DNA of 64,000 nucleotides from Eledone cirrhosa (taxonomy: Eukaryota), in NCBI GenBank assembly GCA_964016885.1, contig OZ024744.1:26722001-26786000 (forward strand), written 5' to 3'. A program made the position numbers and the translations under genes. Within the stretch, counting starts at the first letter, position 1, and the number at the start of each line of letters is the position of its first letter. This document shows, in pieces, positions 317 to 24,760 of the stretch. Below the pieces are notes generated by a model. It worked only from the letters and a program-made list of their open reading frames with translations, was not told the DNA's origin and did not search any database.

Positions 317-482
317 AATAGAATTAGGATTTAGCTTCATGCATAGCTGTATACAGATATGTATTGGAATTTCGTATTTCTAAAGAAATACGGCATGTTT
401 ATAGGTAAACATTTAGAAAGCCGTAGCTATGCAAACACCAGGGCTAACGCCCTCTGGTGGTGTCCAGCAGAAGCAAGGGGAC

Positions 483-528
483 AATCGTCGATGCATTTCG
501 AACTTAAGTGGTTTTCATCAGGACGATC
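483..528 (-). ncRNA. Minimal type I hammerhead ribozyme, intact core
   Basis: Minus strand reads gatcgtc-CTGATGA-aaaccacttaagttc-GAAA-TGCA-TC-gacgatt: 7-bp stem I, short stem II, palindromic stem III (AUGCAU), AUC cleavage triplet. Confidence 0.8.
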
Positions 529-776
529 GCCCCACCCTTGCGACTGCTAGACTTGAAAACATGGGATAATATGTAGTTTTCTCGTCTGTGTAAATGAGAT
601 GATTAATCTCATTTGCATATGAAGCTACTTAAGTTGGATCAACAGGACGATCCCTCCCACTCTTAAGCCAACTTATGCCGCTTCATATGTACATGAGATT
701 AATCACCCTATTTACACAGACGAGAAAACTATATATTCTCACCTGTTTTCAAGTCTAGCAGTCGCAAGGGTGTGGG

Positions 777-822
777 GATCGTCCTGATGAAAACCAGTTA
801 AGATCGAATTACATCGACGATT
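777..822 (+). ncRNA. Mirror copy of the hammerhead, core mutated
   Basis: gatcgtc-CTGATGA...GAAT-taca-TC-gacgatt; GAAA has changed to GAAT. Confidence 0.65.
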
Positions 823-19999: not shown

Positions 20000-22900
20000 A
20001 AGCTGTTGCTAACAACATCCAAACCCCAAAGCAATGTCCGAAAACAAAGAACACAATCCAAAAACTATCAACATCCACTCCACCTTTAAAAACCAAAAAA
20101 GACAACACACCAAACATTTCCCTGAAGGATTCCCCCTCTGCCTAACACTCACACACACACATAAACACTCTACCACCACACAACATACCCCTCCCAAACA
20201 CCCCTGAGGATAACACCACAGATGCGGCAGCCACCTCATCTTCGAGCGAGGATGAAGAAAAAAACAGACACTGCAAAAACACAAAAGCGCCAATCACCAA
20301 CACAAACACACAGACACCACCACAAATGACAACTACACCAACAACACAGACATCACCACAACTAAAACAAACACCAACACGACCACAAGCACAAATGCCC
20401 ACCATCAAAAGAAAACTAGAGTACAAACAACAAACAGAAACATCACAGCAAAAAATCAAACCACACTACACGAAAGACCCCACCATTCAGAAAGAAGGAA
20501 AAACCTTCACCAGCACAAACACTGCACCACACTCAAAACTGATACGAGTTCCAACACAAACTTACAATTTTCTTAAAGAAAACTTTCCCCACGATGCTGG
20601 ACCCCGTCCCAAAATCCCTCAACCGCGTGCTCCTGAAATGTTTCCCCACCCCACCAAACATTCCCACCACCACCACCAGAGATCGAACAACCTGACCTCC
20701 AGGAAACTAAAATGTGTTTTTGCCTTTTTCTCTCCCTAACCCTTCTTCAGCAACATGGCGACTGTACGAGTTGGATGTTTGAATGTGCGTGGCCTGAGGA
20801 TGTCCTGGAAGCAGAGCCAACTTTTAAATGACCTCAGGTCACACTGTATAGATGTGATAGCCGTCAACGAGTCCAGATTCACGACAAGCACAGTTAACCG
20901 ACATGTTCGATGACTTTGAGATCTATGCATGTGTCTGTAACCCAGGAGATGGAGGTGGAGTTGGTCATTCTAGACGTGAATGGTGGTGAATGTGAACCTT
21001 TCAGACTGGTGGCCATATATGCCCCAACTGGGACATCGCGGCAAGAGTTCTTTAACTGTCTGGAGTCATTCCTGGGAATGTCTTGCTCTTTTCTGTTACG
21101 GGGGACTGGAATGGTGTCTTGGATGCACGTTGGGACTATGTAGTAGCGTGGAATAGAAGAGGGGGTGAGGTGTAACAGCTTCAGAAATCGCATTAGCCTA
21201 TTGCAACTGGCTGATAGATATCGACTAGATTTCCCAAGTGCACCACTGTGGTGTGGAGCTACCCCACTGGCTCCTCTAGATCACATTTAAATAGATTTCT
21301 AATTAGACAAAACGATAGGGATACCTTAAGCTGTCCATAAAGATACATGGTTGCCTATTCAGACCACAAATTAGTGACATGCATGGTTAACTTTGATAGA
21401 ACACATGAACTGGGACCTGGATACTGGAAGCAAAACATGTCGTTACCGACGCATAAAGGTTACATTAAGTTAAACTTTAGTTAAACGCTAGTTGACGGGG
21501 TCCATCATCAACAACAGGTGCTGGTACTCTCTCAAGAGAGCAATTAGAGTAGAATCGATAGCCTTTAGCAAGGAAGTAGCTTTAGAAAAGAACAAGACTG
21601 AATAGGAGCTGGTAGCTAAAGTAGAAGAGGTACTTAGGAATGGCAGTACAGCTGACATGCTAGCGGCGAGAACGGCACTAGACCATTTCTTCAACGTGAA
21701 ACACGAAGGTTGTATTTTCAGAAGTAGAACACATGCTCTGAGAAACGAGGGAACCAAAGCTGTTAGCTGGGCCCGAGTGGCAGAGGCGAAAGGTGGCAAC
21801 AGATCCACAATTCGGTCTTTGAAAGACCAAGACGGACGCGTGCTACTTGAATCCAGACAGATGTACACGGCCTCCAGCAGCACTTTGCACAACTGTTCGG
21901 GCAGAACGGTGTATCGGATAGGGTGACACACTTCAGTTCCTTACCTTGACTGCTTACCGCGACTCTCGAGCACTGATGCGAAAGGCCAATCACAGCGGGC
22001 GAAATAGAAGACGCCCTAAGCAACTGTGGGAAGCGTAAATCACCCGGTCTAGATGGTCTACCCTATGAGTTTTACATAGGCATGCCAGACTTGTTCTTTG
22101 ACATCCTCGAAGTGGTCTACTGCAACTGGCAGCAGAACGAGAGTATTCCCAGTTCTGTAAGCCAAGGCGTAGAAATGCTGATCAGGAAATATAAGAAGAA
22201 AGGGGACAACGTAAATAACTTCAGGCTCATAACTCTGCTCAACACAGAGTTGAAGATTTTTGGCCAAAGTGTTAGCAACGAGGCTGGAGCATGTCGTCGA
22301 GAGCCTGGTGAGTGACGGACAAACGTGTGCAATCCCGACCAGGTCCATACACGTCAACCTCCACCTCATACGATACATCTTAGAGAGGGTAGGGTGTGAA
22401 CTTGTCTTCGGTGGTGCTCTGCTCAATTTGGATCAATATAAAGCATTTGATAGGATCGACCATCAATACTTGGAAGCAGTTCTGAAGGCGGCCGGCTTCG
22501 GTCCCGTCTTCAGAGGCTGGATCGCTTCCATGCACACCAACATCTGCTCGGCAGTCAAGGTGAATGGCTACTTATCGGAGCGATTCCAAATCATGCGTTC
22601 CATCCGTCAGATATGCCCTCTCTCCTCCATTCTGTATGTACTGACTCTCGAGCCATTACTGAGGAAGTTGGAGCTTTTGCAGCTCATCCCGATGGAACCA
22701 GGACTGCGAAAAGCAGCGTCGACTTATGCCAACAACGTGACCGTCAAAAACCTCAGAAATCGGGGTGATCGGCAACTTACTACAGGAATACGAAACGTTG
22801 ACAGGAGCAAAACCGAACCCGGACAAGTCTGTAGGTTTGCAACTCGGCACATGGAGACGCAAACCTATGACGTCCGACAGTGTCTTTGGACGCTGGACGG

Positions 22901-23710
22901 AAGAACTGGTGAAATTGCTCGGGGTCTAGTTTGGTCAAGACCTCCAGGTGAAGAAAAACAGGAAGGAAGTAACGGAAAATATATTTGCGCCCATCCAGAA
23001 GTGGGCTGAGTGCAAACTCTCATTAAATGATCGAGCAGAGATGGCGCAAACTTACATAGCGTCTGTCATCTATTACTGCTTGACAGTCGTGCCTTGTCCC
23101 CGCGATCACCTCACCAAAATTGAACGCCTAGTCTTCAATTTCTTTCAGAAGAAACAGGCTCCATTAGTTAGGAGATCCATCTGCTGCCAACACCATTACA
23201 ACGGAGGGCTGGAAATGCTGCGTCTGATAATGCGCAAACACGCACTGAGGTATTTCTGACTCCTGAACCGGTGTGGTCGTCATTCGTGAGACAAGCTTTT
23301 TCACTCCTAGTCTCAATAACATAAGATGCAATCCTGAGTCAAGCGAAGACCGAAAATAGGCGCCCGGAACCTCGAGTGCCTTCAAGCGCTCACAATCTTC
23401 TATCAGGCGGACGCGGCAATCAGCCGGGACTCCTCATCAACATTCTATAGTGGGTTAGTGGAGGATAAGTGTCACGGCGTTCTCGGGGAGACTCTGGGCG
23501 TAAGAGAGGATGAATTGGCCAGTCTGTTCGGGAGGACTTTCCGTCCATGGCCTATGGATAACTTCCAGGGTTTTCTAGTCTGGCAGTGTTACCGAGAAGC
23601 TCTACCAGTTTGAGACAAGATCTTTTGTTTACACACTTAAATGTAAAATTACTCGCCATATGTCCTGCAGTGGCCCATTTCTTGTGCGCCCTTATGACAA
23701 ATAAAGAAAT
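20000..23710 (+). mobile_element. Degenerate Tx1/L1-like LINE (ORF1 3' part, ORF2 APE-RT)
   Basis: ORF2 start at 20755 (MATVRVGCLNVRGL), APE motif AIYAP, RT motifs; many stops and deletions; aataaagaaa end followed by TCTA-like repeats. Confidence 0.85.
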
Positions 23711-24491
23711 TCATCTATCTATCAATCTATGTATCTCTCACACGCCCTCTCTCTCTGGATATTATATATAGTTGTCTTTAAGTGATTATTTGAATGTGGC
23801 TGTTGCGTTTGCACCATCGAAATCTATAAAATACTATGTAAGGAAGGTTATACACTTTGCGTCTGTTTTATGTATTCTACAGTGATATAAGATCGCATAG
23901 AATAAAATTGAATATCATTATACGAAAGAACGTTAAGGCCGTGTAATTTTATTACATAATTAAATTTAATTTTATGCGCATTTCAGCAATACCAACTTAT
24001 TCTTGTGATGTAATCGTAAATGTAAGGCTGGCATGGCTTCGTCAGAAAGTATTTTGCATTTAAGCAGAGGTTACACAAGAAGAATTATTAAGATTTGGAA
24101 GTTTTGGAAGGTTCATTCAAAAGGGTAAACAAAGGATTTATTCACAGTTTCGAGGTAAGCTCTCAACTAGGTTTTCAAGCAAACAATTAAACAATTAGTT
24201 AATTAATTAGGTAATTAATTAATTAATCAAAAAGGCTAAGAAAAAATAATTATATTAATGAAGGCTAAGAGAAAATAATAATAGTAATGAGTAGTAGATT
24301 AGTCCCGATCTTCAAAGACTGTCACAAAACACTCGGTGATAGAATAATTAATAAATTGTTCCTCAGAGTGAACACAATAAGTTAGGTAATATGACAAAAT
24401 GAATAATGCGACCAGAGGTATGTTGCCACATTAATATTACTACGAAAATATATGTATATCGTTAGGGAACAGAGAATCAGTGTTGCAAAGT

Positions 24492-24760
24492 ATACATAGT
24501 TAATTACATATTACATGTTTCACAACCGATCAGCTCGAGGAACGATCGATGATGTTCGTTCCTGATTCTGGAATCAAAAGCTCCTCAGATATGTGCTTTA
24601 ACATGTAGACTCACACCGAAATATTGCTGTTAGACGTGAGTCTACATGTGAAAGCAGATATCTGAGAAGCTTTCGATTCAAGAGTCAGGAACGAACATAA
24701 TCGATCATTCCTGGAGGTGATCGGTAGTGAAACATATGTAATATGTAATTAAATATGTAT
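24492..24760. mobile_element. Foldback element with mirror hammerheads
   Basis: Arms at about 24492-24614 and 24636-24760 are reverse complements; related sequence lies at positions 1-70. Confidence 0.85.
24506..24594 (-). ncRNA. Type I hammerhead ribozyme with extended stem II
   Basis: Minus strand reads acatat-CTGAGGA-gc...aggaacga/tcgttcct...gt-GAAA-CATG-TA-atatgt. The plus-strand mirror at 24656-24746 has CTGAGAA (core mutated). Confidence 0.75.

What the first reader, a model, noticed from the sequence alone, without database searches (positions are those of the whole stretch)
362..24760. Four unrelated foldback palindromes each carry a divergent pair of hammerhead ribozymes
Seen: palindromes at 362-944, 3596-4468, 5269-5400 and 24492-24760 share no obvious sequence, yet each has a CUGANGA...GAAA..UH motif on the minus strand of the left arm and the plus strand of the right arm. 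In the three that fold fully, the left copy has an intact core and the right copy has a core or cleavage-site mutation. Known: PLE pseudo-LTRs carry minimal type I hammerheads, and PLE insertions often have an inverted 5' pLTR. Inference: these are either extremely truncated PLE insertions or a class of non-autonomous ribozyme foldback elements. Read-through from either side would give a long dsRNA hairpin with one self-cleaving site, so a substrate for ADAR or Dicer.
Basis: partly seen in the sequence, partly recalled or inferred. Interest (0 to 1): 0.75.

Follow-up and report, generated by a model that had tools for sequence, protein, structure and literature searches.

The report
Back-to-back hammerhead retroelement insertions
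The four hairpins are real, but each is two back-to-back pieces of a common hammerhead-bearing repeat, likely joined when a Penelope-type jumping gene enzyme inserted it; this layout is already described, and only the likely capped-RNA start of one family stands out.

Summary
The four palindromes and their outward-facing type I hammerhead motifs are real. They are not a separate foldback class. Each arm belongs to an abundant repeat family: 251 to 2963 first-look candidates each. These families also occur as solo copies or tandem arrays. P2 is a ~422-nt tandem retrozyme and P1 a ~340-nt unit, both with variable centres. All four carry a one-sided 45-64-nt tail, the published Penelope-like (PLE) insertion signature, which a coding PLE-type family in this genome shares. 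P3's centre is nearly fixed (22 of 27 sites). It lies 30 nt behind a TATA box, and 53 of 91 solo copies carry a G absent from the parent (0 of 26), so it likely marks the capped RNA start. 'Left intact, right mutated' is not a family rule: both arms are intact in 9 of 11 P2 loci. In a read-through hairpin the ribozyme is predicted to be trapped. No coding partner and no RNA data were found. This scan reached similar readings before on other DNA.

The parts
316..361 (-). P1 one-sided tail (3' extension of left arm only)
   Evidence: matches family sequence beyond the inverted repeat; family 3' ends cluster near +161-166 and +203-212
362..636 (-). P1 left arm, partial copy of a ~340-nt tandem-type unit; intact type I hammerhead 521-490 with palindromic UGCA in helix III
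637..662 (-). P1 centre: short extra piece repeating the 5' half of the hammerhead (likely a template-switch filler)
   Evidence: match of window 627-664 back to the arm in many loci; sequence
663..944 (+). P1 right arm; hammerhead 784-815 with GAAA to GAAU
3589..4030 (-). P2 left arm, about one whole ~422-nt retrozyme-type monomer; intact hammerhead 3840-3810
4028..4123 (.). P2 inner hairpin at the junction (source of the below-threshold Rfam miRNA hits)
4127..4414 (+). P2 right arm; hammerhead 4165-4195 with cleavage site UA to CA
4415..4468 (+). P2 one-sided tail
   Evidence: family 3' ends at about +250 (9 of 38 ends) and +305 (17 of 38)
5205..5268 (-). P3 one-sided tail
   Evidence: family 3' ends near +66 and +131
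5269..5339 (-). P3 left arm; complete hammerhead, core 5333-5295; 5' strand of stem I at 5339-5334 is the inferred RNA start
5338..5400 (+). P3 right arm; core letters intact, 5' strand of stem I missing
24462..24635 (-). P4 left arm plus 21-nt unique 5' part (24615-24635); hammerhead 24588-24512 with long stem II
24636..24790 (+). P4 right arm; core CUGAGAA at 24662-24668
24791..24848 (+). P4 one-sided tail (end approximate)
   Evidence: family 3' ends near +128-142 and +211-214, the latter at the reference limit
5868..9303 (+). Neighbouring coding PLE-type element: inverted 3'-end piece 5868-5984, 5'-truncated ORF in two frames 5961-8155, 3' region to 9303; same architecture, used as in-genome comparison
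   Evidence: the PLE label and Hydra-like clade rest on recalled motifs and architecture (no Pfam or PDB match)

Best explanation
Each palindrome is two head-to-head partial copies of an abundant non-coding hammerhead repeat, likely built anew at insertion by a Penelope-like (PLE) reverse transcriptase/endonuclease acting in trans. Inferred steps: the protein cuts both strands of a (TA)n-rich target and primes two cDNAs from two fixed internal sites of the element RNA. The stretch between the two sites becomes the one-sided tail. The two cDNAs are joined at their far ends, often through 1-6 nt of microhomology. In tandem families (P1, P2) the cDNAs stop at variable places, so centres vary. In P3 they likely run off the capped 5' end of an uncleaved RNA that starts at stem I of the hammerhead, so the centre is nearly fixed and usually only one arm keeps a whole stem I. 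The inserted copies then decay, probably neutrally. Shown: family membership, solo/tandem/inverted forms, two 3' ends, junction positions, TATA spacing, extra G. Inferred: the enzyme, the priming order, the cap, ribozyme activity.
For: Abundant families: 2963, 251, 1420 and 2018 first-look candidates for P1, P2, P3, P4; 1700 exact P3 core matches against 0 for the reversed control. Head-to-head forms are a subset among top hits: P1 10 of 29 (at least 2 rest on <=32-nt matches), P2 14 of 27, P4 8 of 29; P3 17 of 27 in a sample not ranked by score. P2 forms tandem arrays of up to at least 7 units of ~422 nt, with inversion points from about -250 to +142. Two 3' ends per family, as in the coding family next door, whose copies end at q513-522 or q692-695 in the 30 loci with variable inverted arms; 7 divergent ORF pairs 1.5-4.6 kb apart among 150 scored hits (read by eye). 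A second coding family with a GIY-YIG domain has a hammerhead after its ORF and two 3' ends. P3: 22 of 27 sense arms start at -8..0; TATA box in 28 of 28 long copies, first T 30 nt before position -6 in 23 of 26; G at -7 in 53 of 91 solo copies (counted by eye) against 0 of 26 long copies. An extra G marks full-length capped templates for L1 (PMC11702581, passage). In L130, L137 and L148 the arm with the whole 5' end is the short one, which a single cDNA folding back cannot make. Literature: inverted 5'-truncated copy plus one-sided tail is typical of PLEs (PMC8557442, PMC3846280; passages); two internal RT starts, both strands cut and extended, uncleaved RNA as main substrate (PMC11167929, parts 1-2 of 4). 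Compensatory stem I pairs (C-G to A-T) in 3 of 75 distinct P3-type sequences, from a related subfamily.
Against: No coding partner was found: P1-P4 do not match the terminal regions of either coding family sampled, so PLE mobilisation is inferred from architecture. P3 arms within a locus are no more alike than between loci (6.9% vs 6.6%), so a shared template per insertion is not shown. No target-site duplication is visible; flanks are mostly microsatellite. No compensatory pairs within the P1, P2 or P3 samples, and core conservation is weak (p 0.29, 0.13, 0.03). No Rfam hammerhead hit. P4 has a 5' hot spot but no clear TATA box at -30, and only 1 of 5 solo copies has an extra G. The window's exact P3 junction recurs at 5 of 27 sites, which a minor palindromic master could also give. 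33 of 44 unrelated palindromes in the flanks have no exact core.
Confidence: 0.85

Rival explanations
1. An independent class of non-autonomous foldback elements that are palindromic in their master copy and move as a unit.
For: P3's centre is nearly fixed; the window's exact junction recurs at 5 of 27 sites and in most of the top hits to a query that spans the centre (biased by that query). 26 of 36 two-armed P3 copies have exactly one complete ribozyme.
Against: Solo and tandem copies are common; P1 and P2 centres vary. P3 junction letters differ and either arm may carry the tail. Solo P3 copies start at the same place with an extra G. A coding family shows the same geometry at kb scale.
Confidence: 0.05
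2. Same families, but the second arm is made by one cDNA folding back on itself (snap-back), or by self-priming on an antisense template as proposed for rotifer Penelope.
For: P3's common junction is a tiny hairpin formed at the cDNA end. P1 and P2 centres hold filler pieces that imply template switches. PMC3846280 (passage) favours self-priming on an antisense template.
Against: In L130, L137 and L148 the putative copied arm is longer than its template. The extra G points to a sense, capped template. Arms are not more alike within a locus (a weak test).
Confidence: 0.15
3. The arms are extreme 5' truncations of coding PLEs whose ORFs lie further upstream than I sampled (most plausible for P4).
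For: P4's parent extends at least 600 nt upstream through AT-rich sequence and its 5' end was not reached. The coding family next door has microsatellites inside its 3' region, where truncation could pile up, as at P3's (TA)n-bounded 5' end.
Against: P1 and P2 units close on themselves as tandem monomers. No PLE-ORF homology was found upstream of the 30 long P3 and 30 long P4 loci. L157 shows hammerhead, (TA)16, long unit, hammerhead without an ORF.
Confidence: 0.15
4. Assembly artefact (fold-back chimeric reads).
For: Palindromes are a known assembly problem (own knowledge); no contig from the 4 public runs laid spans P1.
Against: Arms differ by 3-11%, carry a one-sided tail and filler pieces, and the same design recurs at many loci.
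Confidence: 0.01

Closest known systems
EN+ Penelope-like element insertion unit with inverted 5'-truncated pLTR and one-sided tail (Arkhipova et al. 2013, PMC3846280; Craig et al. 2021, PMC8557442; passages read)
   Same: Head-to-head inverted copy, one-sided tail, (TA)n targets, hammerhead in the terminal repeat, TATA-like box in the pLTR
   Different: No ORF between the repeats; tails are 45-64 nt rather than 30-40 (176 nt in the coding family here); no TSD seen; coding partner unknown
Metazoan non-LTR retrozymes (Cervera and de la Pena 2020, PMC7229834, passages; Li et al. 2026, bioRxiv 10.64898/2026.07.22.740005, parts 1-3 of 5 read)
   Same: Non-coding monomers of a few hundred nt with a type I hammerhead, as solos, dimers and tandem arrays (P2 clearly, P1 partly)
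   Different: 'inverted' occurs 0 times in PMC7229834; circular RNA and cleavage not tested here; P3 and P4 were not seen as long arrays
Minimal PLE hammerheads (Cervera and de la Pena 2014, PMC4209133, passages)
   Same: Short palindromic helix III (UGCA in P1, CUAG in P2, CAUG in P4), predicted there to work as dimers with low activity
   Different: P3 has a 3-bp helix III with an 8-nt loop; P4 has a ~58-nt branched helix II
Poseidon of Anolis in vitro (Frangieh et al. 2024, PMC11167929, parts 1-2 of 4 read)
   Same: Two internal RT start sites defining the tail, both strands cut and extended, AT-rich targets, uncleaved RNA as main template
   Different: The parts I read do not show head-to-head joining or a cap-derived G; here the evidence is genomic only

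Membership tests
Type I hammerhead ribozyme | CUGANGA, GAAA and UH core with helices I-III | tested here: met
   left arms of P1-P4; 194 motifs in 728,588 nt of selected loci against 0-1 in 5 shuffles
Type I hammerhead ribozyme | Stem covariation | tested here: inconclusive
   none within the samples; compensatory stem I pairs in 3 of 75 P3-type sequences and varied paired stem II in a neighbouring family
Type I hammerhead ribozyme | Match to Rfam hammerhead models | tested here: not met
   no hammerhead among 123 hits at E<=10; that minimal PLE forms escape these models is my inference
Type I hammerhead ribozyme | Self-cleavage | not testable with these tools
   8 P3 copies start at the cleavage site, but the site itself reads TA, so microhomology explains them equally well
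PLE-type insertion unit | Inverted 5'-truncated copy, head to head, variable length | tested here: met
PLE-type insertion unit | One-sided tail between two fixed 3' ends | tested here: met
PLE-type insertion unit | Target-site duplication | tested here: inconclusive
   flanks mostly (TA)n or (TG)n; none discernible
Autonomous PLE | RT plus GIY-YIG ORF linked to the repeat | tested here: not met
   no ORF link for P1-P4 in 1.5-kb flanks; no match to two coding families; P4's 5' end not reached
Non-LTR retrozyme | Non-coding tandem monomers with one type I hammerhead each | tested here: met
   P2 arrays of ~422 nt (66 of 73 arms intact); P1 ~340-nt partial tandems; P3 one partial tandem (L157); P4 not shown
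Non-LTR retrozyme | Expressed circular RNA | not testable with these tools
   no RNA holder listed
MITE-like or independent foldback element | Fixed palindromic structure shared by copies | tested here: not met

The most novel reading that the evidence does not exclude
The P3 family records how Penelope-like elements make their inverted copies: the enzyme primes both target strands from two sites on a sense, capped, uncleaved RNA whose first base is the base of hammerhead stem I, copies the cap as an extra G, and joins the two run-off cDNAs head to head. This would settle template polarity against the antisense self-priming model and place the ribozyme as a 5'-end processor of the element's RNA rather than a requirement for insertion.
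Probability: 0.55. Interest if true: 0.55.

Novelty: new member of a known kind. Interest (0 to 1): 0.3.

Why it matters
As a catalogue item it is ordinary: new families of hammerhead-bearing PLE-type repeats in a genome with many such families (27 motif clusters in 0.73 Mb of selected loci). Its value is mechanistic. How PLEs form head-to-head inverted repeats was left open in PMC3846280 (passage). P3 offers about 1700 exact-core copies with a TATA-spaced start, an extra G and arm-swapped junctions, which together make a two-primer, sense-template model testable with the existing in vitro Poseidon system. It also warns against annotating such hairpins as MITEs or miRNA precursors.

Tried and rejected
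Rfam scan: only below-threshold hits, mostly miRNA models on TA-rich hairpins. Links to an ORF: tblastn with the window's PLE-type protein and ORF lists on loci gave bystander fragments only; BLAST of P1-P4 against a second coding family gave only neighbouring insertions. P3 rows were spoiled by a TA tract in the reference and were replaced. The sample was biased by a query spanning the centre and was replaced by the pattern sample, which holds the first 30 matches on one chromosome. Within- versus between-locus arm identity was uninformative. 'Left intact, right mutated' as a rule was rejected: both arms intact in 9 of 11 P2 loci with arms on both strands; the 2 P1 cases have one intact, with 20 of 32 arms intact overall. 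P4 start test gave only 5 matches. No RNA holder listed for P2. Contigs of 4 public runs laid on P1 gave no spanning piece. The coding ORF had no Pfam or PDB match and the Atlas did not hold it. Paper searches (listings only, except the papers cited) showed no paper on a cap-derived G in PLEs; the library lacks most subscription journals and I read no supplements. My guess that the host is a cephalopod comes from sequence style and was not tested. No statistical test was run on the extra-G counts.
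Full report
Observation. The window lies in a 3.0-Gb animal assembly. Self-comparison confirms four local inverted repeats with arm identities of 89-97% and no similarity to each other. Each left arm has a complete type I hammerhead on the minus strand. A strict descriptor found 4 motifs in the window against 0 in 100 shuffles. P3 differs from the description: its left ribozyme folds fully across the centre, and its right copy lacks the 5' strand of stem I. 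Rfam reports no hammerhead, and free-energy folding of the isolated motifs mostly does not give the three-helix form, as expected for minimal PLE-type ribozymes with a weak palindromic helix III (PMC4209133, passages).

Each arm belongs to a large family. Searches of the own genome gave 2963, 251, 2018 and 1420 first-look candidates for P1, P2, P4 and P3 (40 scored each). P2 copies are 97-100% identical and form tandem arrays of a ~422-nt unit, with head-to-head inversions in 14 of 27 loci at scattered junctions. P1 is a ~340-nt unit, mostly solo or partial tandem, with variable centres. P4 is mostly solo; 8 of 29 loci have an inverted arm, often only a piece of the tail. Its parent extends at least 600 nt upstream and no ORF was reached. 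These three samples are top-scoring hits, not random draws; duplicates of one site were dropped before counting.

All four share the PLE insertion signature. Each family has two preferred 3' ends, and in each window palindrome one arm ends at the near site and the other at or toward the far site, leaving a 45-64-nt one-sided tail. An inverted 5'-truncated copy and a one-sided tail are described as typical of PLEs (PMC8557442 and PMC3846280, passages). The tail has been traced to two internal RT start sites in vitro (PMC11167929). The coding element beside P3 (5868-9303) belongs to a young family with intact 808-aa frames. Its copies show the same two ends and variable inverted arms. Its PLE label rests on recalled motifs and architecture, since Pfam and PDB gave nothing. 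A second coding family has a GIY-YIG domain and a hammerhead after the ORF. Neither matches P1-P4, so the mobilising partner is unknown.

P3 is the informative case. An exact-core pattern has 1700 matches. At 27 distinct sites among the first 30 matches, 22 sense arms start within 8 nt of the core, 17 have an inverted arm and 12 have one that reaches the core. Longer copies define a ~480-nt non-coding parent bounded by (TA)n. All 28 long copies examined have a TATA box; in 23 of 26 with a readable core its first T lies 30 nt before position -6, the first base of stem I, which is a purine in 24 of 26. Of 91 solo copies abutting AT-rich target, 53 have G at -7, 6 have the parental C and 32 have A or T; G at -8 occurs in 5 (counted by eye). 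The parent has no G at -7 in 26 copies. For L1, an extra G marks full-length copies of capped RNA (PMC11702581, passage). Copies starting at the cleavage site are few (8; that pattern needs part of the long tail, so the two counts are not strictly comparable). I infer that short P3 copies are run-off cDNAs of a capped, uncleaved RNA, which fixes the centre. In three sites (L130, L137, L148) the arm with the full 5' end is shorter than the other arm, which favours two primings over one cDNA folding back. P4 has a similar 5' hot spot without a clear TATA box or extra G.

Both arms are intact in 9 of 11 P2 loci with arms on both strands, so the window's pattern in P1, P2 and P4 fits chance decay. 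In P3 the asymmetry is built in by the junction: exactly one complete ribozyme in 26 of 36 two-armed copies (this set mixes the biased and unbiased samples). Core positions change somewhat less than other positions (p 0.29, 0.13, 0.03), and a related subfamily has compensatory stem I pairs, which suggests constraint in source elements. A read-through RNA would form a long hairpin, but the antisense arm comes first and the hammerhead costs a predicted 57-93 kcal/mol, so self-cleavage there is unlikely. No RNA data were available.

Context and verdict. Hammerhead repeats are common here: 27 motif clusters in 0.73 Mb of selected loci. Of 44 unrelated palindromes in those loci, 9 have outward cores, 2 inward and 33 none, against 0.4 in shuffles. 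Many elements insert into (TA)n, which likely explains their clustering in this window. The finding is best filed as new families of a known kind, laid down in a known geometry. The start-site and extra-G evidence is the one less ordinary part. I reached it before consulting earlier notes, which report the same reading in this and other genomes (unchecked AI notes, not independent support).

Noticed in passing
window 4810-5045: Fifth element of the same design: hammerhead 4942-4991 on + with a 55-nt inverted copy of its 3' end at 4810-4864.
   Followed up: partly
window 5499-5526, 5672-5720, ~25186-25240: Further hammerhead or hammerhead-like repeats; 5672 is about 70% similar to 4942, and that superfamily shows varied but paired stem II.
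   Followed up: partly
window 5868-9303; L245-L248: Young coding PLE-type family (808-aa frame, 150 scored hits at 93% identity or more) with an unusually long 176-nt tail. No exact CUGANGA core was found in its terminal repeat; a CUAAUGA variant lies inside the start of the ORF.
   Followed up: partly
window ~197-240: Short stretch resembling the 3' end of the second (GIY-YIG, 995-aa) coding PLE family, just left of the TA/TG tract that holds P1 (by eye).
   Followed up: no
L023, L067, L098, L110, L117, L140, L223: A frequent ~120-nt palindrome family with a GAAA-containing arm but no CUGANGA core; possibly a family whose centre removes the core.
   Followed up: no
L157: P3 partial tandem: inverted arm, hammerhead, (TA)16, long unit with TATA box, second hammerhead; a candidate full-length transcript copy.
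   Followed up: partly
window 17128-62700: Many RT-bearing LINE-like fragments (RVT_1, zf-RVT, Exo_endo_phos), some as long dispersed inverted pairs; a 1082-aa frame at 53536-56784.
   Followed up: no
L201, L254: Diverged P4 relatives keep a long, paired stem II; L254 is itself a head-to-head insertion in the TA tract at the end of a coding PLE.
   Followed up: no
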